From NCBI RefSeq assembly GCF_048403405.1, contig NZ_CP183129.1: a stretch of 64,000 nucleotides of DNA, one strand, 5' to 3'. The notes beneath the pieces are model-generated. The model was given only the letters and a program-made list of their open reading frames with translations. It did not search any database and was not told where the DNA came from. Every line of letters begins with the position of its first letter. The stretch's first letter is position 1. Source of the DNA: Escherichia coli. GTDB taxonomy: Bacteria; Pseudomonadota; Gammaproteobacteria; Enterobacterales; Enterobacteriaceae. Made by a program: the position numbers and the translations under genes. Below are positions 1,398-41,528 of the stretch, in pieces.

Positions 1398-1682
1398 ATG
1401 AAAATGGCCAATCATCCCCGCCCGGGGGACATTATTCAGGAATCACTGGACGAACTTAATGTCAGCCTGCGCGAGTTTGCCAGAGCAATGGAAATTGCGC
1501 CCTCAACGGCAAGCCGATTGCTGACCGGAAAAGCAGCTTTGACACCAGAAATGGCGATTAAACTTTCCGTGGTGATCGGCAGTTCGCCGCAAATGTGGCT
1601 GAATCTGCAAAACGCCTGGAGTCTGGCAGAGGCAGAAAAAACGGTGGATGTGTCGCGATTACGCCGTCTGGTTACGCAATAA
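1398..1682 (+). CDS. yddM: XRE/HigA-like HTH transcriptional regulator (antitoxin-like, no partner toxin gene seen)
   Basis: 94 aa from [11 protein letters not shown] within ORF 1320..1682; HTH region [23 protein letters not shown]; stop TAA 1680..1682 coincides with the first bases of the IS200 end. Confidence 0.8.
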
Positions 1683-2394
1683 ATAAATATCCTCCGGCAT
1701 AGCCGGAGGTTTTTCAAATGCGCCTGTAAGGCTCTGTTACCAGCCGCGCCCTAACAGGCGCATACGATCTGACATTTGCATTCAACTTCGTTACTTACGG
1801 CCCGTAAACGGGCTGCCCGGATAGGGAATCGATAACTGCTCCCCCATTTTATCCTCTTCAAGCTGGTGCTTTATGTAGTCCTGTATCTTCGCCGTGTTCT
1901 TACCCACCGTATCGACATAGTACCCTCGGCACCAGAACTCCCTGTTTCTGTATTTGAATTTCAAATCCCCAAACTGCTCGTAAAGCATCAGACTGCTTTT
2001 CCCTTTCAGATATCCCATAAAGCCGGATACGCTCATTTTGGGTGGGATTTCCACAAGCATATGGATATGATCTGCGCAGCACTCTGCTTCCAGAATCCGT
2101 ACGCTTTTCCACTCACACAGCTTTCTCAAAATACTGCCTATCGCCCTACGCTTCTCTCCGTAAAACGCCAGTCTTCGGTATTTCGGCGCAAAAACTATGT
2201 GATATTTACAGTTCCAGCGGGTGTGCGCTAAGCTCTTTTCGTCCCCCATTGGGACCCCCTTTTGATTTCTTGTTTGACACTTGCAGTTGCCAGACCGCAA
2301 GGTGTTTTAACAAATCAAAAGGGGTTTTAATAACTGGCTCAAAGCTGAAAGCTTTCCGGAACCCCCAGCCTAGCTGGGGGTTTTCTGTGCACAA
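1680..2394 (-). mobile_element. IS200-like insertion sequence (IS200/IS605 family, tnpA only), copy A; ends +/-3 bp
   Basis: About 715 bp nearly identical to the reverse complement of 40814..41528; contains a single Y1 transposase gene; conserved terminal hairpin cctccggcatagccggagg. Confidence 0.85.
1791..2249 (-). CDS. tnpA: IS200/IS605 family Y1 (HUH) transposase TnpA
   Basis: 152 aa from MGDEKSLAHTRWNCKYHIVFAPKYRR; HUH motif HIHMLV; within ORF 1791..2300. Confidence 0.9.
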   Translation of the reverse strand: MGDEKSLAHTRWNCKYHIVFAPKYRRLAFYGEKRRAIGSILRKLCEWKSVRILEAECCADHIHMLVEIPPKMSVSGFMGYLKGKSSLMLYEQFGDLKFKYRNREFWCRGYYVDTVGKNTAKIQDYIKHQLEEDKMGEQLSIPYPGSPFTGRK

Positions 2395-2420
2395 AAAAAT
2401 GGCGCTTCTTAAAGCGCCAT
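2393..2420 (-). terminator. Rho-independent terminator of fdnGHI
   Basis: Hairpin atggcgc/gcgccat followed on the minus strand by a run of 7 U (A-run 2393..2399 on plus), 25 nt downstream of fdnI stop; the IS200 end abuts this U-tract. Confidence 0.7.
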
Positions 2421-2444
2421 TTTCAGCTTAAAGTTCAAAAGAGA

Positions 2445-3098
2445 TTATATCCCTTCTTCACTCTCTTTTTTCGCTTCTGCCTTCTCGATTTCACGATACC
2501 AGCGCGGATGGTGTTTCTTCGCCCAGCGACGGCTCACCTTCCCTTCGATCATCCCTTTAATCGATCCTTTCACCCAGAATGCCATATACATATGGATCAG
2601 GATGGCGTGGATCAGGATGATACCCGCAGCCGCGTGAATCAGCAGGCTGTAGCGAACAACCTGCATCGGGAAGTACTGCGCAAAGTACGGACGCCAGATA
2701 ATCACCCCGGTCACCAGCAGCACGAAAATCATGCTCATGATCGACCAGAACATCATCTTTTGCCCGGCGTTGTACTTACCGACATCCGCCACTTTGTGCT
2801 CATTGCCTTTTAATACTTCGACAATGTTCAACAGCCACGGAATATCTTTCTTATCCGGGATGTTGTGATGCACAAAACGCACAAACATAAACATCAGCGC
2901 GACGAAAATCGCAATGCCGAAGAACGGGTGCAAAATGCGTCCCATCTGCGGCGTACCGAAGGTTTGCGTCAGCCATTGCAGCGTCGGGAAGAAGAATGAA
3001 ATCCCGGACAGCGCCACCAGGAAGAAGCAAATCACCACGGTCCAGTGACAGGCGCGATCAATAAATTTGGTGCGCACAATCATTTTCGACTTACTCAT
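2445..3098 (-). CDS. fdnI: Formate dehydrogenase-N gamma subunit (cytochrome b556)
   Basis: 217 aa from [12 protein letters not shown] within ORF 2445..3140; multi-TM b-type cytochrome; 8-nt overlap with fdnH. Confidence 0.93.
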
Positions 3099-3975
3099 GA
3101 TGATCCTCCTCGTCATCGTCCACTTCCTTATTCGGGCCAATACCGATGTAGTGGAAAATCAACCCGGCAAAAGTGGCAATAAAGCCAGCCGCTGCCAGCG
3201 GTTTCAACGCGCCTTTCCACAGGCTTACCGAGGTGTCGATCTTCGGATCTTTCGGCAGACCGTGATACAGCTCCGGCTGATCGGCGTGATGCAGCACGTA
3301 CATAACGTGCGTACCACCGACCCCTTCCGGGTTGTAGACGCCAGCATGTTCGTAACCACGCGCTTTCAGTTTCGCCACGCGCTGTTCCGCCAGCTCCAGC
3401 ATCTCCTTCTTGGTGCCGAAGTGGATAGCCCCGGTCGGACAGGTTTTCACACAAGCCGGTTCCTGGCCGACGCTGACGCGATCGACGCAGAGCGTGCATT
3501 TATATACCCGGTTATCCTCTTTGTTGAGGCGCGGAATATTAAACGGACACCCGGCAATGCAGTAACCACAGCCGATGCAGTTTTCCGACTGGAAATCGAC
3601 AATCCCGTTAGCGTACTGAATGATTGCACCAGCAGACGGGCACGCCTTCAGGCAGCCCGGATCTTCACAGTGCATACAGCCGTCTTTACGGATCAGCCAC
3701 TCCAGCTTGCCGTTCTGTTCGGTTTCGCTAAAGCGCATCACCGTCCAGGACTTGGCGCTCAGATCGGCGGGGTTATCGTAAACCCCGACGCAGTGCCCCA
3801 CTTCATCACGGATGTCGTTCCACTCCGAACACGCCACCTGACAGGCTTTACAACCGATACAGGTGGAAACGTCGATAAGTTTCGCGACTTCTGCTTTGTA
3901 ATCACGCACCTGAGAAGGCGGCGTGATGGAGTTAGTTGCGGACCTTTTGATAATGTCCTGCGTTTCCATAGCCAT
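3091..3975 (-). CDS. fdnH: Formate dehydrogenase-N beta subunit (4x[4Fe-4S] ferredoxin-type)
   Basis: 294 aa; repeated CxxCxxCxxxCP clusters ([58 protein letters not shown]); C-terminal TM anchor. Confidence 0.95.
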
Positions 3976-3987
3976 CTGTTCGCCCCC

Positions 3988-6900
3988 TTACGCCTTCTCA
4001 ATGTTGACTAAGAACGCTTTATATTCCGGCGTTTGCGAGTTTGCATCACCGACATTCGGCGTCAGAGTGTTAGCGATATAACCTTTACGCGCGACACCCT
4101 CAAAGCCCCAGTGGATTGGAATACCCACCGTTTCAACCTGCTGACCGTTTACATTCAGCGGCTTCAGACGGCGCGTTACCACAGCCACCGCGCGGATAAA
4201 GCCACGCTTGCTGGATACGGTGACACGGTCGCCATTGGCGATGCCTTTCGCCGCCGCCAGCGTTTCGCTGATTTCCACAAACTGTTCCGGCTGAGCAATG
4301 GCGTTGAGCAATGCATGCTTAGTCCAGGTGTGGAAGTGCTCGGTCAGACGATAGGTCGTACCCACATACGGGAACTGCTCTTTTTTACCCATCCGCAGCG
4401 CGTCTTGTTCATACAGACGAACGACCGGGTTAGACACCACGTTCGGATGCAGCGGGTTAGTGCCCAGCGGCGTTTCAATTGGCTCGTAGTGTTCCGGGAA
4501 CGGACCTTCCGCCATTTTGTTGATGGCAAACAGGCGTCCCATCCCTTCCGGCTGCATGATAAACGGTCCGGTTAGTGTACCTGGCGCGGCATTGCCGAAG
4601 TCCGGAATATCGTTACCCGTCCACTTGCTGCCGTTCCACTGGATCAGCATCCGTTTCGGATCCCACGGTTTACCGTTGATATCCGCCGAAGCACGGTTGT
4701 AGAGTACGCGACGGTTGAGCGGCCACGCCCAGGCCCATCCCAGCGTATTCCCCAGACCGGACGGGTCGGAGTTATCGCGGTTAGCCATCTGGTTGCCCTG
4801 CTCTGTCCAGCTACCGGTGTAGATCCAGCAAGAAGATGCGGTTGTACCGTCATCACGCAGATGCGCAAAGCTACTCAGCAACTGACCTTTCTTCGCAATC
4901 AGCACGCCATTGGCATCATAGAGATCTTCCAGCGCGTAGCCGTTGTTCTCTTTAGCTACTTCGTCAGATTGCGGTTCGTGCGGCTGCTTGTAGTTCCAGC
5001 TCATCTTCATCAGCGGTTCTACGCCTTTACCACCTTCGGCCTGGTACAGCTCGCGCAGATGATGGTAGATACCCGCCAGAATTTCGCCGTCGTTACGCGC
5101 TTCGCCCGGCGCGTCCTGACCTTTCCAGTGCCACTGCAACCAGCGACCGGAGTTAGCAATAGAACCATCTTCCTCAGCAAAGCAGGTCGAAGGCAGACGG
5201 AATACTTCAGTCTGAATAGACGCAGGATCGACATCGTTCGACTCGCCGTGGTTCTGCCAGAAGGTAGAAGTTTCAGTCACCAGCGGATCGATAACCACCA
5301 TATACTTCAGCTTGCTCAGGCAGCTTACCACTTTGTTTTTGTCCGGGAAGGACGCAACCGGGTTAAAGCCCTGGCAGAAATAACCGGTGACTTTGCCTTC
5401 ATCCATCATGTTGAAATACTTGATGACGTCGTAGGTCTGGTCCCACTTGGGCAGCCAGTCGTAGCCCCAGTTGTTCTCTTTCTGCGCAGCATCGCCGTAG
5501 AAAGATTTCATCAGGCTAACGAAGAACTTCGGATAGTTGCTCCAGTAGTTCACCTGATCAGCCAGCGTCGCTTTCGGCGTGTTCGCTTCCAGATACGACT
5601 GCAAATCAACCTGTTTTTCTGACGGCAGCGTCAGATAACCCGGCAGGCTGGTAGAGAGCAGGCCTAAGTCGGTCAGCCCCTGAATGTTGGAGTGACCACG
5701 CAATGCGTTCACGCCGCCACCGGCCATACCCATGTTACCGAGCAGTAACTGGATCATCGCCATAGTACGGATGTTCTGCGCACCCACGGTGTGCTGCGTC
5801 CAGCCCAGCGCGTAAAGGAAGGTGGTTGTGCGATCCGGTGCGCTGGTGGAGGCCAGCACTTCACACACTTTCAGGAAGTCGGCTTTTGGCGTACCACAGA
5901 TGTTTTCTACTACGTCCGGCGTGTAGCGGGAAACGTGCTCTTTCAGCAAGTTCCACACACAGCGCGGATGAGTCAGTGTTTCATCGCGTTTCGCATAGCC
6001 GTTTTCATCGAACTGATAGTTCCAGGACGATTTATCGTATTGACGTTTTTCAGCGTCGTAGCCGCTGAACAGACCGTCTTCGAAAGCAAAATCATCACGC
6101 ACCAGCAGACTGGCGTTGGTGTAATGCTTAACGTATTCGGCGTTGATTTTGTTGTTTTCGATCAGGTAGCGCAAAACGCCAGACAGGAACGTAATGTCCG
6201 TACCGGAACGAATAGGTGCGTAAATATCCGCTACAGAAGCGGTACGCGTAAAACGGGGATCGACAACGATCAAGGTTGCATCGTTGTTGTTTTTCGCTTC
6301 CATCGCCCAGCGGAAACCGACGGGATGCGCTTCAGCAGCGTTACCGCCCATCACCATTACGACGTTAGCGTTTTTGATATCCACCCAGTGGTTGGTCATC
6401 GCACCGCGACCAAATGTTGGAGCAAGACTTGCTACCGTTGGTCCGTGTCAGACGCGCGCCTGGTTGTCTACCGCCAGCATCCCGAGGGAGCGGGCAAATT
6501 TCTGGGTCAGCATCCCGGTTTCGTTGCTGGCACCGGAGGCACACAGCATACCGGTAGAAAGCCAACGGTTTACCGTTACGCCCTGCTCGTTCTTTTCAAT
6601 AAAGTTAGCGTCACGGTCAGCTTTCATCAGCTTCGCAATACGGGAGAATGCTTCATCCCAGCTAATGCGCTGCCATTTGTCAGAACCTGGCGCACGATAT
6701 TCCGGGTAGCGCAGACGGTTTTCGCTGTTGACGTAATCCAGCAAACCGGCCCCTTTCGGGCACAGCGCACCACGGCTTACCGGATGATCCGGGTCACCTT
6801 CAATGTGATAAATCGCTTCTCTGGCGTTTTTCGCGCCATCACCCAGGCTATACATCAATAGCCCGCAACCTACGGAACAGTATGTGCAGGTGTTACGGAT

Positions 6901-7035
6901 CTCTTTAGCGCGTAATAATTTGTAGTTTCGCGCCTGAGCCAGTGCTTGCTTTGGGGCAAAGCCCAATGCCGCTACTGTTGTTCCAGCCATACCGCCCGCG
7001 CAGATTTTAAAAAATTGTCTGCGACTGACGTCCAT
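3988..7035 (-). CDS. fdnG: Formate dehydrogenase-N alpha subunit, selenocysteine-containing molybdoenzyme; in-frame UGA at 6448..6450 decoded as Sec
   Basis: ORFs 6448..7035 (195 aa, Tat signal RRQFFK) and 3988..6399 are in the same frame separated only by one TGA; local sequence ...NQARV-U-HGPTVA matches the Sec active-site context; total 1015 aa. Confidence 0.93.
6400..6447 (-). other. SECIS-like stem-loop region immediately 3' of the fdnG UGA
   Basis: mRNA sense CACGGACCAACGGUAGCAAGUCUUGCUCCAAC... can fold (GCAAGUCUUGC) directly after the UGA, as expected for bacterial SelB-dependent recoding. Confidence 0.6.
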
Positions 7036-7099
7036 TGCTTTCCTCTTTTTTCAGGGGTATTACTGCGCGAGGAAACTAACAGTAAAATTCTGAATCTTT

Positions 7100-7113
7100 T
7101 TGCGCGAAATCAA
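7100..7113 (-). promoter_or_regulatory. Candidate FNR half-site pair in the fdnG promoter
   Basis: Minus-strand reading TTGAT-TTCG-CGCAA versus consensus TTGAT-N4-ATCAA; about 70 bp upstream of fdnG ATG; fdn is known to be FNR-activated. Confidence 0.4.
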
Positions 7114-7160
7114 AAAGAACACGTGTTTGCCACAAAATAATCCGCCTGCGCAAATTGACC

Positions 7161-7176
7161 TACCTCAATAGCGGTA
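7161..7176 (-). promoter_or_regulatory. Candidate NarL 7-2-7 heptamer pair
   Basis: TACCTCA-AT-AGCGGTA, two inverted near-consensus TACYYMT heptamers with 2-bp spacing, about 60 bp upstream of the FNR-like site; overlaps an alternative FNR-like TTGAC-N4-CTCAA at 7155..7168. Confidence 0.4.
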
Positions 7177-23359: not shown

Positions 23360-23362
23360 GCA

Positions 23363-27789: not shown

Positions 27790-27912
27790 GTCAAATTGTT
27801 CGAGAGAAAATACCAACATGATGGATTTTACTGTAAAAGTAATGTCGTAGTTTAAAAACTCATCATCCGGTAAAGCCTTGTGGGGCGTGGGCTTTCATAC
27901 TTTTACCCTGAT
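27790..27912 (-). repeat. ISAs1/H-rpt element upstream end (copy 1 of a conserved roughly 120-bp block)
   Basis: tcaaattgttcgagagaaaataccaacatgatgg...cttgtggggcgtgggctttcat...ccctgat is about 85 percent identical to 34529..34650. Confidence 0.65.
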
Positions 27913-28226
27913 GTCTGCTATACGCCGGACACCCTTTACGTAGCATTCGGAATTCACCCGTAAATTTATCACGGCGGTATCACGAAACCTCCGGTTCTGA
28001 TGCCGCTTAGGACTAACGACACGTCAACACAGGTTCGGGTTTATTCATTTCACTGTATCTCATATAATCTGAGCACTCCCCCTGCGCTCGCTACTATGAC
28101 TCTTTACCACAGCAACCGGGGTTGTTTGGGATCGGCTTTCAACAGCAGATCCCGGTGGCTATTGCAAGTAAGTCTACTTTCCACATCAGTGTTACTGACA
28201 CAGAAAATAATGAGTTATGATCCTTG

Positions 28227-28712
28227 TCATATTTTTAATATAGCCCCATGAGCTATAGGATCAAAACCTTCTAACCATGAGGTGTTTTTATCGAATAATG
28301 CACCTGTTATATTTATATCGCCATATCTATCACATAATAAATTAGCGCCACATAAGTCAGCACCAGAAAAATTTGAATCTTTAACGTCTGCATTGCAAAA
28401 GGTTGAATTAGTTAATATAGCACCCTCAAAGTTTGCACCTATTGACCTTGAATTACTAAAGTCACTTCCAGTGAAATCTGAGTTATTAAGAATAGCGTTC
28501 ATCAGAGCCGCATTGCGAAAGACAGCATTTCTAGTTGATGTATGTTGAATCATTACATTTCTTAAATGGGAATTTTCAAATTTCGCCCCATCAAGACAAT
28601 AACCATTGAGGATGGCACGATGTAGATCCATCCCGCTAAAATCATATCCAGCAAGAGTGGTACTATCTATATCAAGAAATTTATTGGTTATTAAAAACGC
28701 GATTCTTATCAT
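28227..28712 (-). CDS. Pentapeptide-repeat protein; putative cognate immunity protein of the adjacent Rhs toxin
   Basis: 161 aa; tandem A(D/N)(L/F)xx pentapeptides ([11 protein letters not shown]..., [33 protein letters not shown]); start ATG overlaps Rhs stop (ATGA) so translationally coupled; AT-rich. Confidence 0.8.
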
Positions 28713-31700
28713 CTATTCCCCCAATCATCTAACTCCGGAAAAATTTGGCTAAACGGATATAGTGGTGCCGATAATGGACGCGTACCTGGCCGCTCAGGAG
28801 GAAGTTTATCACATAACAGACCCGCAACCATCCTGTGATTACCATTAACAATCACATTCCCATCCATATCAACCGGTGGTGCTCCACTACCATCTTCCAG
28901 CATTTGTACGTAGTGAGCTACTACGGGTACTGAGACTTTTTGTTGTACTGTCAACAAGGGACTGTTGGCCACAACCATCCTGATGTTTTCAGGTGTCGTA
29001 GGTAAACATTTAGTCTTCTCTTGACTAAAGGTATCATCCCACAATTTTGTTAAACCCATCACTGCCTGTTGTCTGTATTTATCCATGGGGTCAGCAATCA
29101 ACCAAGATGGACCTGACTGCTCTATGGAATCTTCTCCGGAGAGACCCAACGGATCTATCTTAGTAGTTGGATTCAATGGATACTGATACAGGTTCCATGC
29201 ACCTCTTAGCCCAATGGGATCCTGGGTGATATACCGCCCCTGCAACGGGTCATAGTACCGGTTGCGGTTATAGTACAGCCCCGACTCCTCATCATACTGC
29301 TGCCCCGGCAGACGGTACGGCTGTTGCAGTTGCTGCGCGCTGGTTTCGCCCAGCAGGTTTCCCCACTCGTCATACTCCCCCTGCCACGCCGTTTCCCCTT
29401 CCGGGCTGATGAGCGCCTGCGGCAGCCCCCGGTGGTCGCAGTGGTAAAGATGAAGTGTCCTCTCCGGGATGTATTCCGCCTCCATCTGGTTTTTCATCTG
29501 TTCCGCCGTCAGCCCGCACTGCTGAAGCCATGCCTCACTCTCCGCACTCACCGCACCCGCGCGCAGTTCCCGCTCCAGCCTCCCCAGCATCACCGACAGC
29601 TCCGCCGGTAGCGTCACCCCCGTGTCCTCCTGCAACACCTCCGCCAGACTCCGGTGCCGCGCCTTCGCCTGTTCACCATTCTCTGTTTCGATTCTGATGA
29701 GCGGCGTGAAGCTCCCCGGCTGGTATACCGTCTGGATACGCGTGGTGCCGGTCTGTACCGTCGTCAGCCTGTCACCGTCCCACCCGTACCAGGTCTCCTC
29801 CGGTTTACGCGACAGCGACATCCACCCCGTCAGGTCACGCTCCCGCCGCCACACCCGTTTCCCCGTCCGGCGGCCCAGCGGGTCATAGAGGTAGCGGCTC
29901 TCCACCTGTGGCTCGCCGTGCTGTATCCGCGTGTAGAACACCAGGCGGTGCTGGCTGTCGTAATGGTAGTGGTGCGTCCGCTCGTCGTGCATCCGTATCA
30001 CCCCTTCCGGGATACGGTCCGTCTTCTCCGCCAGCCTGCCGTATTCATCGTAGCGGTAGACATAGTGCGCATCTTCCGTGATGCGGTTATCCGGCCACGC
30101 CGTGAAGGTGCTGTCCGGGTGCAGTTCCGGGTCCGGCAGCCGGTTTCCTGCCGGGTCCGTCGCATACGGGATATCGATATCCAGGTTCGCCGCCGTGGTG
30201 TGAACGCCCGTCAGTCTTCCCGTGTCGCTGTAACGGTACTTCCGGCTCTCCTGCGGGCCGCTGATGCGCACCAGTTGCCCGTTATCGTTCCACGTATACT
30301 CACGGTCAAGCTGCGGAAGGTTCAGGTGCCTGCTCCGGAGCTGCCCTGTGAGGGTGTACGCCGTGGCCTGTTCGTACCCCGCTGTACTGCCCGCCCCGCC
30401 GAAGCTGCGGGCCGTCTCACGGTGCAGCCGGTCCCGCGTGTACTCGACCAGCGGCGTTCCGCCCAGCTTCATCCCCGCAAGATAACCGCTGCCATACGTC
30501 AGCCACTCCACCGGCGGCAGACCGTCCGGCTCCTGACGGGTCGCCAGCCCCTGTTCGCTGTAGACGTGCCTCGTCTCATGCTCCCACAGCATCTCCCCCG
30601 TCTCCTGGTTCTCCACCGTCTGCCGTTCGCCCGTCAGGCGGCCTTTATCGTCATAGCCGTAGTGGACCGCCACACGGTGGCCTTCGCTCAGGTGGCTGAT
30701 TTCTGTCAGCCAGCCGTGGTCGTCATACTGCCACTGCTCCGCCGGGTCGCCGTTCACCGTCCGGTGCGTGATGCGCCCGGCGTCATCGTAGTACCACTGC
30801 GTGACCTGCCCCTCATCCTCGCTGCGGATGAGCTGCCCTGTGGCGCTGTACCGGTAACGCTGTGTCCTGCCGTCAAAGCCGCGCTGCTCCGTCAGCCTGT
30901 CCACCGGGTCATACCGGAACGTGGACTGGCTGCCGTTCTCGTTGGTCAGCACGGTGATGCGCCCGGCGGCGTCATACTCCATGCTGCGCGTCAGTCCGCC
31001 CTGCGTGGTGCTGACGGCCTTTCCCCACGCATCATACTGTGTCTCACTCCGGCTGCCGTTCGGGGCAATGATAGCGGTGAGGTCGCCTGCGGCGCTGTAC
31101 TCATAACGGGTTTCACGTCCCTGCGCATCCTTCTGACTGACCAGTTGACCACGCGGGTTATAACTGCTGTAAGTGCTGATGCCTTCCTCCCGGTGAACCG
31201 CCGTCCTCTGACCGTACCGGTCGTATTCATACCGCGTCGTGTACCCTGAACAGTCCGTAAATGCCTGAAGCTGACCGTACCGGTTTCGCGTTATTCTCCG
31301 CCTCACCCCGGTTCCGTCTTCCACCGCACAGGGCAGGCCACTGCGGGAAGAATCATAAAACCAGCGCGTAATGTTACCGTTGCGCGAGACCTCTTCCGCC
31401 AGCCTGCCCTGACGGTCATATTTCCGGCTGCGGCGCAGCCCGTCCGGGTACGTCACTGACGTCAGTTGCAACTGGTTGTTGTAACCATACCGTACCGTCC
31501 TGCCGTCCGGCAGTATCACTGAAGTCAGCTTTCCCGACGCCATATGCAGCCGGTACTCCGTCCGCCGTCCCGCCGCATCCGTCTGCGCCTTCAGCCTCCC
31601 CGCCTCATCATACTCGCTGCGGGTGATGCTCCCGTCCCCATACTCCTTCTTCACCACCCGCTTCAGGCCGCCCTCGCCCTCCGTGTACAGCACCTCCCGC

Positions 31701-32920
31701 CGGTTCAGGCTGTCCGTGATGGTCACGCGGTCCTGCCCGTACTCAAAGCGGTAGTCCAGCCCCTCCGGGTTGACCTGCTCCGTCACCCGACCGGTATCAT
31801 CATACCGGTAGCGGCTCTCCGGCCTCCCCGCATAATGGTGCGCCACCATCCGCCCGGCGTGCTCCGCATCATAAGTAAACCCGCGCACCTGCGTCCCGCT
31901 GCGGTCATACACCGCCCGCAGTTCTCCGCTGGCCGTGTACGTGTAGCGCGCCAGCGGCGCAGTCGGCAGTTCATCCGGGTATGCCGGGTCGTGTGTCAGC
32001 CATACCGCCTCCAGCCGGATACCGTTATCGGCACCGTACTCTGTACCGGTGGGCAGCGTGTCGGGGAAAAACTGAGAAGAGGAAACAGAACGGGGACTGG
32101 CCGGAGAAGATAAAGAAGACTCGCGCTGTTTACGGAAGGCTTTCGCCCGCTGCGCCTGTGTGGTCAGCGCCAGATGAAAACGGCGGCCCGCGCCGTCCGT
32201 CACCCCCGTCACCGCGCCCGCCGCTTCCCCCTCTGCCGCCCGGTGGAAGGCCAGCGTCCGCCCGAAGCCGTCCACCACGCCCGTCAGCACCCGGTATGCG
32301 GGCGGCTCCGGCGGCAGCACCTCGTCCGCCTCCGGCACCCGCTCCGGCCAGCCGAGTATCCACCACGGCCCCTGAAGGCTGTTTGTCGCCAGGTACACAT
32401 GCGGGCTTAAGCGGAGACTCTCCGGCAGCACCTGCCAGAGCGCGCTTAGCGGCTGCGAACTGTGCTGCTCCGCCACCCCGCCCCTTGCCAGCCAGAACGA
32501 CTCGCTGCGGCTGTAGCTTATCTCGCCGGGAAACAGCGGCTCAAAGTGAATGCTCCTGCCGCCACTGTCGTTGAGTATCAGTTCCCGCTCATGAACCTGT
32601 AAGCGGATATCGAAGGGCGCTTTCCAGCCGGGACCAAACACCCCCACCGGCGCGGGTGTCCTGGTCCGGTAGCTGCTGTAGGCGCGGGAAAGAATAAACG
32701 GCAACGGGCCGGGCAGCGCAAGATCCGTCTCGCCCGGCAGCACCTTCGCACCCAGTAGCGGGTTCACCGGGTTACCCTTCTGCTCCTCCACCGGGCTGTT
32801 GGGACACACCGAGCAGGCCACTCCCGTCGGCGCACCTATCAGCACCCCCGCTGAACCCTGCACAATATCCAGTCCCTTGCGGGTCATATCGCCCTGTCGC
32901 GCCGCCGGTTTTCCGCTCAT
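28709..32920 (-). CDS. Rhs-family polymorphic toxin (PAAR-containing N-terminus, YD-repeat shell, DPLGL-delimited variable C-terminal toxin tip)
   Basis: 1403 aa; N-terminal [13 protein letters not shown]...[12 protein letters not shown]; many YD repeats ([18 protein letters not shown]...); conserved PxxxxDPLGL just before the last 143 aa; GC-rich core, AT-rich tip. Confidence 0.93.
28712..29140 (-). other. Rhs C-terminal variable toxin domain (last 143 aa), family not recognised
   Basis: Sequence after DPLGL: [10 protein letters not shown]...VVAHYVQM...[17 protein letters not shown]...ELDDWGNR; base composition drops relative to the Rhs core. Confidence 0.6.
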
Positions 32921-34528: not shown

Positions 34529-34650
34529 GTCAAATTGATCGAAAAAAAGATCAACATGATGGGTTTTACGATAAAAGTAATGTCGCGATTTAAAAATTCA
34601 TCATTCACCAAAGTCTTGTGGGGCGCGGGCTTTCATGCTTTTTCCCTGAT
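34529..34650 (-). repeat. ISAs1/H-rpt element upstream end (copy 2)
   Basis: Paired with 27790..27912 (see above). Confidence 0.65.
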
Positions 34651-35761: not shown

Positions 35762-37261
35762 ATGAGTAAACACGACACCGACACTTCAGATCAACACGCC
35801 GCGAAACGCCGCTGGCTTAATGCCCACGAAGAGGGGTATCACAAAGCGATGGGCAATCGCCAGGTACAGATGATCGCCATTGGCGGCGCGATTGGTACGG
35901 GTTTGTTTTTAGGCGCGGGAGCCCGACTGCAAATGGCGGGGCCAGCACTGGCACTGGTCTATTTGATCTGCGGCCTGTTTTCATTTTTTATTCTGCGTGC
36001 ATTGGGTGAGCTGGTGTTACACCGCCCTTCCAGTGGCAGTTTTGTCTCTTATGCCCGTGAGTTTTTAGGAGAGAAAGCCGCTTACGTTGCAGGCTGGATG
36101 TACTTCATCAACTGGGCGATGACGGGGATTGTCGATATTACCGCCGTCGCTCTGTATATGCATTACTGGGGTGCGTTTGGCGGCGTGCCGCAGTGGGTCT
36201 TTGCGCTCGCTGCGCTGACCATCGTTGGCACCATGAATATGATCGGTGTGAAATGGTTTGCCGAGATGGAGTTCTGGTTTGCGCTTATTAAAGTGCTCGC
36301 CATTGTTACCTTTTTGGTCGTGGGTACAGTGTTCCTCGGTAGTGGTCAGCCGCTGGATGGCAACACCACTGGTTTTCATTTAATTACCGATAACGGCGGC
36401 TTCTTCCCCCACGGTTTGCTGCCTGCGCTGGTGTTGATTCAGGGCGTAGTGTTTGCTTTTGCCTCCATTGAAATGGTGGGTACAGCTGCCGGAGAATGTA
36501 AAGATCCGCAGACCATGGTGCCTAAAGCCATTAACAGTGTGATTTGGCGTATTGGCCTGTTTTACGTCGGCTCCGTGGTGTTGCTGGTTATGTTATTGCC
36601 GTGGAGCGCATATCAGGCGGGGCAAAGTCCGTTCGTGACGTTTTTCTCTAAACTGGGTGTGCCATATATCGGCAGCATTATGAACATTGTGGTGCTGACC
36701 GCTGCCCTCTCCAGCCTGAACTCAGGTCTGTACTGCACCGGACGTATTCTGCGCTCAATGGCGATGGGCGGTTCCGCACCGAGTTTTATGGCGAAAATGA
36801 GTCGTCAGCATGTGCCGTATGCCGGGATTCTGGCGACACTGGTTGTGTATGTCGTCGGCGTATTCCTCAACTATCTGGTGCCGTCGCGCGTATTTGAGAT
36901 TGTGTTGAACTTCGCGTCGCTGGGAATCATCGCCTCATGGGCGTTTATCATCGTGTGCCAGATGCGCCTGCGTAAAGCGATTAAAGAAGGCAAAGCCGCG
37001 GATGTCAGTTTTAAACTGCCTGGCGCGCCCTTCACTTCCTGGCTGACATTACTGTTTTTGCTGAGCGTCCTGGTGCTGATGGCGTTCGATTACCCGAACG
37101 GGACTTATACCATCGCGGCGCTGCCGATTATCGGTATTCTGCTGGTTATAGGCTGGTTTGGTGTGCGCAAACGCGTTGCTGAAATTCACAGCACTGCGCC
37201 AGTCGTCGAGGAAGATGAAGAACAACAGGAAATTGTGTTTAAGCCTGAAACGGCGAGTTAA
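35762..37261 (+). CDS. ansP: L-asparagine permease (APC family)
   Basis: 499 aa from MSKHDTDTSDQHAAKRRW within ORF 35711..37261; amino acid permease signature. Confidence 0.93.
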   Translation: MSKHDTDTSDQHAAKRRWLNAHEEGYHKAMGNRQVQMIAIGGAIGTGLFLGAGARLQMAGPALALVYLICGLFSFFILRALGELVLHRPSSGSFVSYAREFLGEKAAYVAGWMYFINWAMTGIVDITAVALYMHYWGAFGGVPQWVFALAALTIVGTMNMIGVKWFAEMEFWFALIKVLAIVTFLVVGTVFLGSGQPLDGNTTGFHLITDNGGFFPHGLLPALVLIQGVVFAFASIEMVGTAAGECKDPQTMVPKAINSVIWRIGLFYVGSVVLLVMLLPWSAYQAGQSPFVTFFSKLGVPYIGSIMNIVVLTAALSSLNSGLYCTGRILRSMAMGGSAPSFMAKMSRQHVPYAGILATLVVYVVGVFLNYLVPSRVFEIVLNFASLGIIASWAFIIVCQMRLRKAIKEGKAADVSFKLPGAPFTSWLTLLFLLSVLVLMAFDYPNGTYTIAALPIIGILLVIGWFGVRKRVAEIHSTAPVVEEDEEQQEIVFKPETAS

Positions 37262-37271
37262 TTGCAAAATT

Positions 37272-37290
37272 GCCCGGCTACGTGCCGGGC
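37272..37290. terminator. Stem-loop between convergent ansP and yncE, probably a terminator for yncE
   Basis: gcccggc-tacgt-gccgggc; on the minus strand followed by AATTTT; weak U-tract on plus. Confidence 0.5.
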
Positions 37291-37373
37291 AAATTCAAAT
37301 TACTGACGAAGGTGCCGGATACGGCGTGATAAAAGTCAGGCAAGTCTCACCGTTTTCACCCTCGCCATATCTA

Positions 37374-38435
37374 TTACAGCGCAATACGAATCACATCATC
37401 CGGCTGGGTTGCTTCCTGCTGTTTAGTGGATTTTTGTTTCACACTGACATACAGCGTTTTACCATCGGCAGACAGCGCCAGGCTGTTCGGATGAGTCGGC
37501 GTATCGAACGTTTTCACCACTTTATAGCTTTTCGCGTCAATCACACTGACTTTACCTGCCTGACGATGCGTTACGTAGGCTTCATTACGCGCCGGGTTAA
37601 ACAGCACAGCCAGTGATTCCGGTGCCGCAACCTTCGCCAGAATATTGCCATTACGGGTATCGACCACTAACACTTCTGCGGCTTTAGAATCGGTGATAAA
37701 TGCACGCTGCCTGGCGGTATCAAGGCTAATGTTGATAAAGAAGTGCTCTTTGCCGTCATCCAGCAGCTTTTTACGGCTGAGGATTTTATTGTCGGCGGTG
37801 TCGATGGTAATCAATTCGCCGTCAGCGTTAGTGGTGTAAAGACGTTTGCCTTTGCTATCCAGCGCCAGACCGGTACTCATTTTACCGGTGTTCTGGATGG
37901 CGGTTTTCAGTTTGATATTCTCGCCATCAACGACCCAAATCACGCTCTCTTTACCAATACCACTGATGTAAACGGTGTTCGTGGCATCATCAGCTACCAG
38001 CTCACGCGGTTGCAGCGGGCGCACCTCTTCCGTGCGCTTACGATCATCCAGCACCAGACGGCCTTTCACTTCGCCCGTTTTGGCATCTATCGCCGTGACC
38101 GCGCTGTTTACAGTGTTACCAAACCACAACGTCTGAGTCGTGTTATTGATGGTGGCACCAAACGGCTTGAGATCGTTATGGATCGCCTGCGTCACTTCCA
38201 GAGTAACCGGATCAAGACGATAAACCACGCCGCCTTTATCCAGTTTGCGGCTTTGCGAAGTGGCGAGCCACAGCGCGTTCTCCTGCTGGCTATAAGCCAT
38301 TTCGTAGGCACCTTTACCTACCGCTTTACGCAGCATTTCTTCTGCAGCCTGCGTACTGAATGATGAAGCAACAAGCAATGAACCTAACAGTAATGAACCA
38401 CGCAGGCGCGATGAAAACAGATGACGTAAATGCAT
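37374..38435 (-). CDS. yncE: Periplasmic beta-propeller (PQQ-like repeat) protein
   Basis: 353 aa with signal peptide; recognised as YncE. Confidence 0.92.
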   Translation of the reverse strand: MHLRHLFSSRLRGSLLLGSLLVASSFSTQAAEEMLRKAVGKGAYEMAYSQQENALWLATSQSRKLDKGGVVYRLDPVTLEVTQAIHNDLKPFGATINNTTQTLWFGNTVNSAVTAIDAKTGEVKGRLVLDDRKRTEEVRPLQPRELVADDATNTVYISGIGKESVIWVVDGENIKLKTAIQNTGKMSTGLALDSKGKRLYTTNADGELITIDTADNKILSRKKLLDDGKEHFFINISLDTARQRAFITDSKAAEVLVVDTRNGNILAKVAAPESLAVLFNPARNEAYVTHRQAGKVSVIDAKSYKVVKTFDTPTHPNSLALSADGKTLYVSVKQKSTKQQEATQPDDVIRIAL

Positions 38436-38518
38436 GACGACTCCCTTTGATGAACCGATATTTTTGCTGCTTCACAATGCTTCGCTAAGCGTAATCATCG
38501 TTACGCTCTTGTTATAAA

Positions 38519-38537
38519 TGGGAATGGTAATCATTAT
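38519..38537. promoter_or_regulatory. Candidate Fur box in the divergent yncE/yncD promoter region
   Basis: gggaatggtaatcattatt matches about 15 of 19 positions of GATAATGATAATCATTATC; yncD is a TonB-dependent receptor and yncE is iron-regulated in K-12 (from memory). Confidence 0.4.
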
Positions 38538-38676
38538 TTTCTCAAATGTGGAGCATTTCTTGCCGTTACGACTACAATTTTCTCAATTACTTAACGTATC
38601 GTGCCGTTTCGTTTTCCATATATTTACAATTTTATTACCATGGCGGCGTTTTCCCATTCTTAACTTGGCTTTTTTC

Positions 38677-40779
38677 ATGAAGATTTTTTCCGTCCGACAG
38701 ACCGTTTTGCCCGCACTGCTTGTCCTTTCCCCCGTTGTTTTTGCCGCTGATGAACAGACCATGATTGTCAGTGCCGCACCGCAGGTGGTTTCAGAACTGG
38801 ATACCCCAGCAGCCGTGAGCGTGGTGGATGGCGAGGAGATGCGCCTGGCAACACCGCGCATTAACTTGTCCGAATCACTGACCAGCGTGCCTGGTTTGCA
38901 GGTACAAAACCGGCAGAACTATGCGCAAGATTTACAGCTGTCGATTCGCGGATTTGGCTCCCGCTCCACTTACGGAATTCGCGGTATTCGCCTGTATGTG
39001 GACGGTATTCCCGCCACCATGCCCGACGGACAAGGGCAAACATCCAACATCGATTTAAGCAGTGTACAAAATGTGGAAGTGCTGCGCGGCCCCTTCTCTG
39101 CTCTGTATGGCAACGCGTCTGGCGGTGTAATGAATGTCATCACCCAGACCGGACAACAGCCACCAACCATTGAAGCCAGTAGTTACTACGGCAGTTTTGG
39201 CAGCTGGCGCTATGGGCTGAAAGCAACAGGCGCAATGGGCGACGGCACTCAGCCTGGCGATGTCGATTACACCGTCTCAACCACGCGCTTTACGACCCAC
39301 GGCTATCGTGATCATAGTGGCGCACAGAAAAATTTAGCCAATGCCAAACTGGGCGTACGCATTGATGACGCCAGCAAATTAAGCCTGATTTTCAATAGTG
39401 TGGATATCAAAGCAGATGACCCAGGTGGGCTAACCGAAGCAGAATGGAAGGCGAATCCGCAACAAGCGCCACGCGCTGAACAGTACGACACGCGAAAAAC
39501 CATCAAGCAAACTCAGGCTGGGTTGCGCTATGAACGTAGCCTGAGCGCACAAGATGATATGAGTGTGATGATGTATGCCGGGGAGCGAGAAACGACCCAG
39601 TACCAGTCAATCCCGATGGCACCACAACTTAACCCGTCGCATGCGGGCGGCGTGATTACTCTGCAACGCCATTATCAGGGGATAGACAGCCGCTGGACAC
39701 ACCGTGGCGAGCTGGGCGTTCCGCTCACGTTCACTACCGGCCTGAACTACGAAAACATGAGTGAAAATCGCAAAGGCTACAATAACTTCCGCCTGAATAG
39801 CGGCGTGCCGGAATACGGGCAAAAAGGTGAGTTGCGCCGTGACGAACGCAATCTGATGTGGAACGTCGATCCCTATTTGCAGACACAGTGGCAGCTGAGC
39901 GAAAAACTGTCGCTGGATGCTGGCGTGCGCTACAGCTCCGTATGGTTTGATTCCAACGACCATTACGTTACTTCGGGTAACGGCGATGACAGCGGTGATG
40001 CCAGTTATCACAAATGGCTACCTGCCGGTTCGTTAAAATATGCAATGACCGATGCCTGGAATATCTATCTGGCAGCCGGGCGAGGTTTTGAAACGCCGAC
40101 GATTAATGAGCTGTCTTATCGTGCTGACGGTCAAAGCGGTATGAACTTTGGTTTAAAACCATCCACCAACGATACAATTGAGATCGGCAGTAAAACGCGT
40201 ATTGGTGATGGGCTGCTTAGTCTCGCATTGTTCCAGACCGACACCGATGATGAAATTGTAGTCGATAGCAGTAGCGGTGGGCGTACGACTTACAAAAATG
40301 CCGGAAAGACCCGTCGTCAAGGCGCTGAGCTGGCATGGGATCAACGTTTCGCGGGAGATTTTCGTGTAAAAGCGTCCTGGACCTGGCTCGATGCGACCTA
40401 TCGCAGCAATGTTTGCAATGAACAGGATTGTAACGGTAATCGGATGCCAGGGATCGCCCGTAATATGGGCTTTGCGTCGATAGGTTATGTACCGGAGGAT
40501 GGCTGGTATGCAGGTACGGAAGCGCGTTATATGGGCGATATTATGGCAGATGATGAAAATACGGCCAAAGCGCCGTCTTATACTCTCGTCGGCTTATTCA
40601 CCGGGTATAAATACAATTACCACAATTTAACTGTGGATTTATTTGGTCGTGTCGATAATTTATTCGATAAAGAATACGTTGGTTCTGTCATTGTCAATGA
40701 GTCAAACGGGCGATATTACGAACCTGCGCCCGGGCGAAATTATGGTGTCGGCATGAATATTGCATGGCGATTTGAGTAA
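38677..40779 (+). CDS. yncD: TonB-dependent outer-membrane receptor
   Basis: 700 aa from MKIFSVRQTVLPALLVLSPVVFA within ORF 38518..40779; TonB box region, C-terminal ...NIAWRFE. Confidence 0.93.
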   Translation: MKIFSVRQTVLPALLVLSPVVFAADEQTMIVSAAPQVVSELDTPAAVSVVDGEEMRLATPRINLSESLTSVPGLQVQNRQNYAQDLQLSIRGFGSRSTYGIRGIRLYVDGIPATMPDGQGQTSNIDLSSVQNVEVLRGPFSALYGNASGGVMNVITQTGQQPPTIEASSYYGSFGSWRYGLKATGAMGDGTQPGDVDYTVSTTRFTTHGYRDHSGAQKNLANAKLGVRIDDASKLSLIFNSVDIKADDPGGLTEAEWKANPQQAPRAEQYDTRKTIKQTQAGLRYERSLSAQDDMSVMMYAGERETTQYQSIPMAPQLNPSHAGGVITLQRHYQGIDSRWTHRGELGVPLTFTTGLNYENMSENRKGYNNFRLNSGVPEYGQKGELRRDERNLMWNVDPYLQTQWQLSEKLSLDAGVRYSSVWFDSNDHYVTSGNGDDSGDASYHKWLPAGSLKYAMTDAWNIYLAAGRGFETPTINELSYRADGQSGMNFGLKPSTNDTIEIGSKTRIGDGLLSLALFQTDTDDEIVVDSSSGGRTTYKNAGKTRRQGAELAWDQRFAGDFRVKASWTWLDATYRSNVCNEQDCNGNRMPGIARNMGFASIGYVPEDGWYAGTEARYMGDIMADDENTAKAPSYTLVGLFTGYKYNYHNLTVDLFGRVDNLFDKEYVGSVIVNESNGRYYEPAPGRNYGVGMNIAWRFE

Positions 40780-40789
40780 TTACCTTGAT

Positions 40790-40811
40790 GCCCGGTATTT
40801 GCCGGGCATTT
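40790..40811 (+). terminator. Stem-loop terminator after yncD, immediately abutted by IS200
   Basis: gcccgg-tattt-gccgggc then ATTTAA, 11 nt after the yncD stop. Confidence 0.5.
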
Positions 40812-40813
40812 AA

Positions 40814-41528
40814 TTGTGCACAGAAAACCCCCAGCTAGGCTGGGGGTTCCGGAAAGCTTTCAGCTTTAAGCCAGTTATTAAAACCCCTTTTGATTTGTTA
40901 AAACACCTTGCGGTCTGGCAACTGCAAGTGTCAAACAAGAAATCAAAAGGGGGTCCCAATGGGGAACGAAAAGAGCTTAGCGCACACCCGATGGAACTGT
41001 AAATATCACATAGTTTTTGCGCCAAAATACCGAAGACAGGTGTTCTACAGAGAGAAGCGTAGAGCAATAGGCAGTATTTTGAGAAAGCTGTGTGAGTGGA
41101 AAAGTGTACGGATTCTGGAAGCTGAATGCTGTGCAGATCATATCCATATGCTTGTGGAGATCCCGCCCAAAATGAGCGTATCCGGCTTTATGGGATATCT
41201 GAAAGGGAAAAGCAGTCTGATGCTTTACGAGCAGTTTGGTGATTTGAAATTCAAATACAGGAACAGGGAGTTCTGGTGCAGAGGGTACTACGTCGATACG
41301 GTGGGTAAGAACACGGCGAAGATACAGGATTACATAAAGCACCAGCTTGAAGAGGATAAAATGGGAGAGCAGTTATCGATTCCCTATCCGGGCAGCCCGT
41401 TTACGGGCCGTAAGTAACGAAGTTGGATGCAAATGTCAGATCGTGTGCGCCTGTTAGGGCGCGGCTGGTAAGAGAGCCTTATAGGCGCATTTGAAAAACC
41501 TCCGGCTATGCCGGAGGATATTTATTTA
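40814..41528 (+). mobile_element. IS200-like insertion sequence, copy B (inverted relative to copy A)
   Basis: Near-identical to the reverse complement of 1680..2394 with a few substitutions; boundaries +/-3 bp. Confidence 0.85.
40959..41417 (+). CDS. tnpA: IS200/IS605 family Y1 transposase TnpA
   Basis: 152 aa from MGNEKSLAHTRWNCKYHIVFAPKYRR; differs from copy A at a few residues (e.g. D3N, LAFYG to QVFYR). Confidence 0.9.
   Translation: MGNEKSLAHTRWNCKYHIVFAPKYRRQVFYREKRRAIGSILRKLCEWKSVRILEAECCADHIHMLVEIPPKMSVSGFMGYLKGKSSLMLYEQFGDLKFKYRNREFWCRGYYVDTVGKNTAKIQDYIKHQLEEDKMGEQLSIPYPGSPFTGRK

What the first reader, a model, noticed from the sequence alone, without database searches (positions are those of the whole stretch)
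1680..41528. Two inverted IS200-like copies bracket 38 kb and each abuts a gene stop codon next to a terminator
Copy A (1680..2394, minus) and copy B (40814..41528, plus) are near-identical and inverted, so homologous recombination between them would invert fdn through yncD. One end of each copy begins exactly at the TAA stop of a gene reading into it (yddM at 1680..1682, mcbR at 41526..41528). The other end sits directly against an intrinsic terminator (fdnI at 2393..2420, yncD at 40790..40811). IS200/IS605 elements insert next to short specific sequences and hairpins on single-stranded DNA, and the shared flanks ...cattt(t/a)(t/a)|ttgtgcacag and taaataaatat suggest the target motif. The copies differ at a few positions, so they are not a very recent duplication.
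Basis: partly seen in the sequence, partly recalled or inferred. Interest (0 to 1): 0.5.

Follow-up and report, generated by a model that had tools for sequence, protein, structure and literature searches.

The report
Two IS200 copies parked behind terminators
These are two ordinary, already catalogued IS200 insertion sequences in an E. coli chromosome, each inserted exactly at the end of a gene's transcription terminator, which is where close relatives of IS200 sit in every case I checked; there is no sign that they have flipped the 38 kb between them.

Summary
Two intact IS200 elements lie in inverted orientation: A at 1682-2392 on the minus strand, B at 40816-41526 on the plus strand. Each is 711 nt; they differ at 26 of 715 aligned positions. 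Each encodes a 152-aa Y1 transposase and matches Rfam STnc490/art200.

Empty sites in other E. coli show that both stop codons are native. The insertion point falls inside or next to the TAA, and the T-rich right end (RE) rebuilds it. The host terminators also pre-exist.

The real flank signal is on the left-end (LE) side only: a GC-rich hairpin plus a T-run ending in TT. All 56 independent close relatives show it (E. coli, Yersinia IS1541, Vibrio and others). Across 110 flanks, folding energy averaged -17.8 against about -6 kcal/mol in controls. RE flanks are at background.

A and B are two sequence variants, not a recent duplication. Neither inversion junction occurs in 5,426 complete E. coli genomes, although one strain carries a mosaic copy, so the variants do exchange sequence.

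The element is known and the arrangement is ordinary. The nucleotide-precise, strand-specific terminator homing is the only mildly interesting part.

The parts
1682..2392 (-). IS200 copy A, the divergent variant. Its LE is at 2392 and its RE at 1682. If the extra T at 1681 is counted as element, the net insertion is 712 nt.
   Evidence: Occupied site compared with the empty site in strain M160133. Ends defined from 56 related copies and from tandem dimers.
1791..2249 (-). tnpA of copy A: 152 aa, Y1 HUH transposase, with H61-x-H63 and Y125.
   Evidence: NF033573, 144.4 bits, cutoff 55. Translation.
2360..2382 (-). LE subterminal hairpin of copy A (AACCCCCAGC-TAG-GCTGGGGGTT). This is IS200's own bidirectional terminator.
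   Evidence: DNA fold -11.8 kcal/mol. IS200 nt 12-34 are described as a terminator in PMC4513863.
1691..1709 (-). RE subterminal hairpin of copy A (CCTCCGGC-TAT-GCCGGAGG), followed by ATATTTATT. On the plus strand it reads as hairpin plus TTTTT, 9 nt after the yddM stop.
   Evidence: Found as terminator-like on both strands. Fold.
2259..2382 (-). Match to Rfam RF01405 STnc490 (the art200 / tnpA 5'UTR region) in copy A.
   Evidence: 146.4 bits, gathering score 56.
2393..2423 (-). Host fdnI intrinsic terminator (hairpin GGCGC..GCGCC plus T7), directly 5' of the LE of copy A. It pre-exists in empty sites.
   Evidence: DNA fold -13.9 kcal/mol, z -5.7. Empty sites L001-L003.
1680..1682 (+). yddM TAA stop. 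It is native; the insertion point lies within it or at its edge, so one or two of its A's now come from the RE.
   Evidence: The empty site reads CGCAA-TAA-AAAAA-TGG. The occupied site reads CGCAA-TAA-ATAAATATCC.
40816..41526 (+). IS200 copy B (IS200C type), 711 nt. This is an exact insertion with no duplication or deletion relative to the empty allele GGGCATTTAATT|TAACG.
   Evidence: strain 7/2 empty allele. RefSeq annotates it as IS200C.
40959..41417 (+). tnpA of copy B, 152 aa. It differs from copy A at 21 nt but only 4 aa.
   Evidence: NF033573, 147.7 bits. Comparison.
40826..40848 (+). LE subterminal hairpin of copy B.
   Evidence: DNA fold -11.7 kcal/mol.
41499..41517 (+). RE subterminal hairpin of copy B. 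On the minus strand it reads as hairpin plus TTTTT just downstream of the mcbR stop.
   Evidence: fold.
40826..40949 (+). Match to Rfam RF01405 STnc490 in copy B.
   Evidence: 146.1 bits.
40788..40815 (+). Host yncD/pqqU intrinsic terminator (ATGCCCGG-TATTTG-CCGGGCAT plus TTAATT), directly 5' of the LE of copy B.
   Evidence: DNA fold -10.7 kcal/mol, z -5.1. Present in empty sites L005, L006 and L131.
41526..41528 (-). mcbR TAA stop. It is native. The insertion fell between its 2nd and 3rd base, and T41526 (the last base of the RE) now supplies the third base.
   Evidence: Empty allele ...AATT|TAACG, with the mcbR CDS ending at that TTA. Occupied site.

Best explanation
The window comes from an E. 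coli lineage that carries two separate, intact IS200 insertion sequences. IS200 is the minimal tnpA-only member of the IS200/IS605 family.

Where each copy sits. Each was inserted on one strand immediately after the T-tract of a pre-existing intrinsic terminator. Copy A follows the fdnI terminator and copy B follows the yncD/pqqU terminator. In both cases the LE abuts the terminator and the element's top strand is the sense strand of the terminated gene.

Why the stop codons are involved. Both terminators sit between tightly packed convergent genes. The last T's of the tract are the complement of the TAA stop of the opposing gene (yddM, mcbR), so the insertion point lands in or beside that stop codon. 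The RE ends in ...TATT, as the target does, so the right junction rebuilds the stop.

Why the insertion costs the host little (inferred). The RE hairpin followed by TTTTT on the bottom strand gives yddM and mcbR a substitute terminator. The LE hairpin is IS200's own bidirectional terminator. Insertion should therefore be close to neutral.

Mechanism.
- Established for IS608 and ISDra2, inferred here: the Y1 HUH transposase cuts out the top strand as a single-stranded circle and pastes it 3' of a short target. The target is read by base pairing with the 4 nt just 5' of the LE hairpin.
- Read from the sequence here: that guide is AAAA in both LE and RE. This fits a T-rich cleavage site (xxTT at the target, TATT at the RE).
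- Shown statistically: a GC-rich hairpin lies 5-10 nt upstream of the cut. This makes the target a structural look-alike of the element's own RE.
- Not shown: how that hairpin is recognised.

The pair. The two copies are different sequence variants (3.6% apart). They face LE-inward, so they cannot form a composite transposon. Homologous exchange between variants has happened in nature (the mosaic copy in strain C1). An inversion of the 38 kb has not been fixed in any sequenced genome.
For: Identity:
- NF033573 at 144-148 bits, cutoff 55.
- Rfam STnc490 at 146 bits.
- LE and RE hairpins fold as expected.
- RefSeq labels the element IS200C.
- IS200 is described as 707-710 bp with a terminator at nt 12-34 in PMC4513863 and PMC12594629.

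Insertion mapping:
- Empty sites for A and for B.
- A third E. coli site, adeD-[IS]-uhpT, has the same architecture.
- Site A is occupied in 303 of 5,426 genomes and site B in 139.

Terminator homing:
- All 56 independent LE flanks from close relatives show a hairpin plus T-run.
- Across 110 flanks, mean folding energy is -17.8 kcal/mol against -5.5 to -6.9 in controls. 84% are at or below -14, against 3-5% of controls; Mann-Whitney p is about 1e-55. Positions -1 and -2 are T in 97 and 100 of 110.
- LE flanks fold strongly in 24 of 25 full-length copies; RE flanks in 0 of 25.
- Yersinia pestis tandem dimers join RE ...TATT directly to LE GTGCCCAG, so an RE can itself serve as a target.
- The RE scores as terminator-like on both strands.

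Variants and exchange:
- 26 differences in 715 positions, 4 of them amino-acid changes; strain C1 carries a mosaic copy; the strain 405 copy at site A is 100% B-type.

No inversion:
- 0 of 5,426 genomes for each recombinant junction.
- TUM14771 and GN02461 carry both copies in the parental order.
Against: - Sites A and adeD-uhpT show a net gain of 712 nt, one T more than the exact 711 nt at site B. I did not resolve this. It could be a shift in the RE cutting register or slippage in a T-run.
- No transposition assay was run. The guide-target pairing is carried over from IS608, and all elements sampled share the same AAAA guide, so covariation could not be tested.
- Selection against disruptive insertions must also contribute to what survives in genomes.
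- Copy B's top strand is probably on the leading-strand template. This is inferred from the K-12 map and does not fit the family's usual preference for the lagging-strand template, although the locus lies inside the terminus fork trap.
It returned no E. coli or Salmonella loci, and the sample is weighted towards Yersinia pestis and Vibrio ruber.
Confidence: 0.8

Rival explanations
1. IS200 inserts more or less at random into T-rich DNA. Only insertions just behind terminators survive, because they disrupt nothing. On this view the pattern reflects selection, not targeting.
For: IS200-family elements are over-represented between convergent genes (PMC9208149). A recent preprint reads the terminator-like sequences upstream of IS200/IS605 elements as an expression-limiting niche (10.1101/2025.07.22.666184). 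Insertions here should be near-neutral because termination is kept on both sides.
Against: - Selection for harmless positions would not fix the cut 5-10 nt after the stem.
- It would not require TT at -1 and -2 in 97-100 of 110 flanks.
- It would not force one orientation: 24 of 25 LE flanks have a hairpin against 0 of 25 RE flanks.
- Control sites ending in TT or TTTT have a hairpin only 3-5% of the time.
- Tandem insertion exactly at another copy's RE also points to recognition.
Confidence: 0.15
2. The pair is an active inversion switch or a composite transposon. Recombination between the inverted copies regularly flips fdn through yncD, or the 38 kb moves as a unit.
For: There are 715 bp of 96.4% identical inverted repeat. 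Exchange between the two variants has occurred in nature, as the strain C1 mosaic shows. Both recombinant junctions would still be convergent gene pairs with terminators, so the flipped form should be viable (inference).
Against: - Neither recombinant junction is found in 5,426 complete genomes. These include the 139 that carry the site-B copy.
- The longest stretch of perfect identity is about 96 bp, which is a poor substrate for homologous recombination.
- Both LEs face inward, so no LE-to-RE pair on one strand brackets the segment. A Y1 transposase therefore cannot mobilise it (read).
- No invertase was sought or noticed next to the copies.
Confidence: 0.04
3. The upstream hairpin plus T-run is part of the mobile element and is carried along with it, rather than being a host terminator.
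For: It is always present directly next to the LE. The preprint does not clearly separate internal from external terminator-like sequences.
Against: The hairpin sequence is different at every locus. The fdnI, yncD and uhpT hairpins are present unchanged in genomes that lack the IS.
Confidence: 0.01

Closest known systems
IS200 (Salmonella/E. coli; the ISfinder IS200C type)
   Same: - Length of 707-711 bp with a single 152-aa Y1 transposase gene.
- LE hairpin and terminator, and a structured 5'UTR matching art200/STnc490.
- No inverted terminal repeats and no target duplication.
- Copy B's gene is annotated as an IS200C-family transposase in RefSeq.
   Different: Copy A is a variant 3.6% diverged from copy B. 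RefSeq names it only at family level. Nothing differs structurally.
IS1541 of Yersinia pestis / Y. pseudotuberculosis
   Same: About 87.5% nucleotide identity with the window copies, and the same LE and RE hairpins. Every one of about 25 copies examined has the same hairpin plus T-run 5' flank. PMC3082878 notes a copy between pheL and pheA, which is where an attenuator terminator sits.
   Different: Much higher copy number, and it forms tandem dimers. LE positions 6-7 read CC rather than AC.
IS608 / ISDra2 (the mechanistic models for IS200/IS605)
   Same: - Y1 HUH transposase.
- Subterminal hairpins.
- Strand-specific single-strand 'peel and paste' transposition.
- Insertion 3' of a short sequence that resembles the RE cleavage site and is read by a 4-nt guide 5' of the hairpin (PMC5027513, PMC5934647).
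   Different: Those elements need only a tetra- or pentanucleotide (TTAC, TTGAT), and they carry tnpB. IS200 has no tnpB. Its sites additionally always have a GC-rich hairpin 5-10 nt upstream of the cut. The guide-target pairing has not been tested for IS200.
Group IIC (class C) bacterial introns
   Same: As I recall from the literature, these home to the position just after intrinsic terminator stem-loops, in one orientation. I did not re-read this here.
   Different: They are RNA-based retroelements with a completely different enzyme and mechanism. The resemblance is in target choice only.

Membership tests
IS200/IS605 family, IS200 group | Encodes a Y1 HUH transposase of about 150 aa with an HUH motif and one catalytic tyrosine | tested here: met
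   NF033573 transpos_IS200 at 144.4 and 147.7 bits, cutoff 55. H61-I-H63 and Y125 read from the translation.
IS200/IS605 family, IS200 group | No terminal inverted repeats; different subterminal hairpins at LE and RE | tested here: met
   The LE starts GTGCACAG with a hairpin at nt 11-33. The RE hairpin is followed by ATATTTATT. DNA folds are -11.7 and -13 kcal/mol. The ends are not inverted copies of each other.
IS200/IS605 family, IS200 group | Insertion without target-site duplication | tested here: met
   Site B is an exact 711-nt insertion relative to the empty allele of strain 7/2. Sites A and adeD-uhpT show one unexplained extra T but no duplication.
IS200/IS605 family, IS200 group | LE always lies 3' of a short conserved target sequence that resembles the RE cleavage site | tested here: met
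   TT at positions -2 and -1 in 100 and 97 of 110 flanks. The RE ends ...TATT. Tandem junctions read TATT|GTGCCCAG.
IS200/IS605 family, IS200 group | Strand-specific transposition through a single-stranded circular intermediate | not testable with these tools
   This needs in vitro or in vivo assays. The strict LE/RE flank asymmetry is consistent with it.
IS200 proper | About 707-711 bp, tnpA only, LE terminator hairpin, 5'UTR stem-loop and antisense art200 (STnc490) | tested here: met
   711 nt. One intact ORF. Rfam RF01405 at 146 bits, full length 1-124. Features as described in PMC4513863.
Composite transposon formed by two IS copies | An LE and an RE on the same strand bracketing the cargo, so that the transposase can excise the whole unit | tested here: not met
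   Both LEs (2392 and 40816) face the 38-kb segment, on opposite strands.
IS-mediated inversion polymorphism | Both orientations of the bracketed segment found among related genomes | tested here: not met
   Chimeric junction queries yddM-IS-yncD and fdnI-IS-mcbR found 0 of 5,426 genomes with 80% or more coverage. Subpopulations within a culture are not testable here.

The most novel reading that the evidence does not exclude
IS200-clade elements may be obligate, strand-specific homing elements for intrinsic terminators. On this reading the transposase, or the single-stranded state of DNA at terminators, selects a GC-rich hairpin followed 5-10 nt later by ...TT. That is a structural mimic of the element's own right end. 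It would let the element insert at the transcript-release point, rebuild the junction sequence, and supply replacement terminators in both directions. This would explain how a nearly immobile IS persists harmlessly. It would also make IS200 a DNA-transposon counterpart of group IIC introns. The pattern is solid in my data. What is uncertain is whether the hairpin is recognised mechanistically, and whether the field has already stated this. A preprint reports the aggregate signal. I could not read the 1998 IS1541 insertion-site paper or the family review.
Probability: 0.3. Interest if true: 0.55.

Novelty: already known. Interest (0 to 1): 0.22.

Why it matters
For this window it matters little. 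The finding reduces to two catalogued IS200 copies in a common E. coli lineage, with no gene disrupted and no inversion seen.

The practical value is for annotation:
- The exact ends are now defined.
- The yddM and mcbR stop codons are native.
- The RE and LE hairpins probably keep termination working for all four neighbouring genes.

The broader point is that IS200-type elements can be expected at the last T of terminators, in one orientation. That helps in predicting and recognising their insertion sites. It also gives a testable idea for how a tnpA-only element chooses safe sites.

Tried and rejected
- **Unreadable papers.** I tried to read the primary papers on IS200/IS1541 insertion sites and the family review (PMC106867, PMC146608, PMC7190074, PMID 26350330, PMID 9422611). 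None is held. Prior description of terminator targeting therefore rests on a preprint and on my memory.
- **Limited collection scan.** I used the Yersinia, Vibrio and other copies it did return, and took E. coli sites from the E. coli genome collection.
- **Terminator scanner missed the host terminators.** The simple scanner did not call the fdnI or yncD terminators and found only the IS's own RE. I used folding with shuffled controls instead.
- **First end model was incomplete.** I first placed the ends from the two window sites alone, which left a 1-nt mismatch at site B (the C of the common empty allele). This was resolved by finding the A allele in strain 7/2.
- **712-nt model rejected as the general form.** A 712-nt element (RE ...TATTT) fits sites A and adeD-uhpT. 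It does not fit site B, the ATCC 25922 copy (RE followed by C) or 9 of 25 related copies (mostly Yersinia IS1541).
- **Recent-duplication reading rejected.**
- **Not attempted.** Replication-strand bias in Yersinia (no origin map available), and a direct count of how many genomes carry both copies.
Full report

Yes. The repeat finder reports a single inverted pair in the window, 1680-2401 against 40807-41528, 722 nt and 96% complementary. The gap-free alignment has 26 mismatches in 715 positions.

Each copy holds one intact 152-aa ORF, at 1791-2249 on the minus strand and 40959-41417 on the plus strand. Both match NCBIfam NF033573 (IS200/IS605 transposase) at 144-148 bits against a cutoff of 55. 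The motifs H61-x-H63 and Y125 are readable in the translation.

Rfam finds STnc490 (the art200 / tnpA 5'UTR region) at full length in both copies, at 146 bits. The window is E. coli. Its order is adhP, yddM, [IS A], fdnI ... yncD (pqqU), [IS B], mcbR. RefSeq annotates copy B's gene as an IS200C-family transposase.

**2. Exact ends and empty sites**

*How the ends were defined.* I compared the window copies with about 30 full-length relatives. These were Yersinia pestis IS1541 at 87.5% identity, plus copies from Edwardsiella, Tatumella and Vibrio. Conservation starts at GTGC(A/C)CAG and stops at ...GGAGGATATTTATT. A nearly invariant TT precedes the LE. Three Yersinia tandem dimers join ...TATT directly to GTGCCCAG. 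The element is therefore GTGCACAG...ATATTTATT, 711 nt, and the TT belongs to the target. In the window this gives A = 1682-2392 and B = 40816-41526.

*Site B.* Most E. coli read GGGCATTTACTTTAACG at the empty site. An allele GGGCATTTAATTTAACG also exists, for example in strain 7/2. Against that allele the window is an exact 711-nt insertion between AATT and TAACG, with no duplication or deletion.

*Site A.* The empty site is CGCAA-TAAAAAAA-TGGCGC and the net gain in the window is 712 nt. A third E. coli site, adeD-[IS]-uhpT in strain HSP60 compared with K-12, also shows 712 nt after a T7 run. The ATCC 25922 copy has its RE followed by C, so ...TATT is the basic end. The extra T at the two T7 sites is unexplained. 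It could be a shift in the RE cutting register or homopolymer slippage.

**3. The stop codons**

Both are native.
- **mcbR.** Its TAA is present in all empty sites. The insertion fell between its second and third bases, and the last T of the RE (T41526) now supplies the third base.
- **yddM.** Its TAA is the start of the TAAAAAAA run in the empty site. After insertion, one or two of its A's come from the RE.
- **adeD.** In the third site, the RE lies 1 nt beyond the adeD TAA.

The reason is geometric. These are tightly packed convergent gene pairs that share a bidirectional terminator. The end of the T-tract on one strand is therefore the complement of the other gene's TAA. The RE ends in TT just as the target does, so the right junction is rebuilt.

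**4. The terminators and the real target signal**

*In the window.* The 5' flanks of both LEs fold into strong hairpins followed by T-rich tails. The fdnI flank folds at -13.9 kcal/mol (z -5.7) and the yncD flank at -10.7 kcal/mol (z -5.1). Both hairpins pre-exist in genomes without the IS.

*In relatives.*

| Measure | LE 5' flanks | Comparison |
|---|---|---|
| Hairpin plus T-run present, 56 independent close relatives | 56 of 56 | - |
| Mean folding energy of the 40 nt upstream, 110 non-redundant flanks | -17.8 kcal/mol | -5.5 to -6.9 in 1,000-1,500 control sites from the same loci, including sites ending in TT or TTTT |
| Share at or below -14 kcal/mol | 84% | 3-5% of controls; Mann-Whitney p about 1e-55 |
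| T at positions -2 and -1 | 100 and 97 of 110 | - |
| Median distance from the last G-C pair to the cut | 7 nt | 9 nt in the element's own RE |
| Strong fold, 25 full-length copies | 24 of 25 | 0 of 25 RE 3' flanks |

The hairpin sequence differs at every locus, so it is host DNA and not part of the element. The RE itself is called terminator-like on both strands, and an RE serves as a target in the tandem dimers.

My reading is that the target is a look-alike of the RE: a hairpin, then a T-rich tail ending in TT.

The 4 nt just 5' of both the LE and RE hairpins are AAAA. This fits the IS608 rule that this guide pairs with the cleavage site. That step is carried over from IS608 and was not tested here. 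How the hairpin is sensed is unknown. Three possibilities are direct binding, the T-run being held single-stranded, and exposure in a paused transcription bubble.

[quoted passage not shown] A survey finds IS200 over-represented between convergent genes. IS1541 is noted between pheL and pheA in Yersinia. I could not read the 1998 IS1541 paper or the family review.

**5. Likely consequences for the neighbouring genes (inferred)**

fdnI and yncD keep their own terminators. The LE hairpin is IS200's known bidirectional terminator. On the bottom strand, the RE reads as a hairpin plus TTTTT starting 9 nt after the yddM and mcbR stops. All four genes should therefore still terminate, and the insertions should be close to neutral.

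**6. Relationship between the two copies**

They differ at 26 of 715 positions. Of these, 21 fall in the ORF and only 4 change an amino acid. Both genes therefore look to be under constraint, and the copies are distinct variants.

| Copy | Location | Sequence type |
|---|---|---|
| Window copy A | site A | A-type |
| Window copy B | site B | B-type (IS200C) |
| Strain 405 | site A | 100% B-type |
| Strain C1 | site B | mosaic: A-type at diagnostic positions 55-517, B-type at 553-669 |

The variants have therefore exchanged sequence by gene conversion or double exchange. The same terminators may also have been hit more than once. I cannot separate these two possibilities. Site A is occupied in 303 of 5,426 complete genomes and site B in 139. 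The same 139 genomes share the inner Rhs region.

**7. Inversion and mobility of the 38 kb**

I built both junctions that an inversion would create, yddM-IS-yncD and fdnI-IS-mcbR. Neither is present at 80% or more coverage in any of the 5,426 genomes. Two genomes checked directly, TUM14771 and GN02461, carry both copies in the parental order.

The longest run of perfect identity between the copies is about 96 bp, which makes homologous recombination inefficient. Both LEs face inward on opposite strands. No LE-to-RE pair brackets the segment, so it cannot move as a composite element. Inversion within a culture at low frequency cannot be excluded with these tools.

**8. Verdict**

The element and the arrangement are known and ordinary. 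The one feature worth a specialist's attention is how exact and one-sided the terminator homing is across the IS200 clade. That is a property of the family and not of this window.

Noticed in passing
window 28051-28159 (-): Rfam match to group-II-D1D4-2 (48 bits, gathering score 36). It lies just downstream of the Rhs core ORFs (28227-32920, minus strand), in a region RefSeq annotates with an RHS core protein and two ISAs1 transposases. It may be a group II intron fragment.
   Followed up: partly
window 27807-27912 and 34545-34650: A 106-nt direct repeat, 84% identical, 6.7 kb apart, bracketing the Rhs element. It probably comes from the two ISAs1 (H-repeat) copies annotated there.
   Followed up: no
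window 6395-6453 (-): SECIS_3 element at 84 bits. I take this to be the selenocysteine insertion signal of fdnG; the position was not checked against the ORF list.
   Followed up: no
L002 (K-12) 690-1060 and L003 690-880: The same fdnI-yddM spot is polymorphic in E. coli for a different reason. Genomes without the IS carry zero, one or two tandem 178-bp units. Each unit contains REP-like palindromes and ends in a fresh copy of the terminator hairpin. The matched spans are 789, 966 and 1145 bp.
   Followed up: partly
L102, L103, L105 (Yersinia pestis NCTC5923): Head-to-tail IS1541 dimers in which the RE ...GGATATTTATT is joined directly to the LE GTGCCCAG. One copy has inserted exactly at the RE of another, so the RE behaves as a target.
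   Followed up: yes
L127 (E. coli strain C1, site B): The IS200 copy is a mosaic. It is A-type at diagnostic positions 55-517 and B-type at 553-669, with unchanged site-B junctions. This shows gene conversion or double exchange between IS200 variants.
   Followed up: yes
L129 (strain HSP60) against L130 (K-12 adeD-uhpT; the sRNA UhpU is annotated there): This is a third E. coli IS200 site with the same architecture. The LE follows the uhpT terminator T7 run and the RE lies 1 nt after the adeD TAA. In K-12 the insertion point lies at the annotated 3' end of the UhpU sRNA.
   Followed up: partly
window 40826-40949 (+) and 2259-2382 (-): The Rfam STnc490 matches lie on the same strand as tnpA. 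The literature describes art200/STnc490 as antisense to the tnpA 5'UTR. The Rfam model may be built in the sense (5'UTR) orientation.
   Followed up: no
window 1680-2399; L129 400-1126: Net insertion is 712 nt at the two T7-run sites and 711 nt at site B. There is one extra T that no simple model explains.
   Followed up: partly
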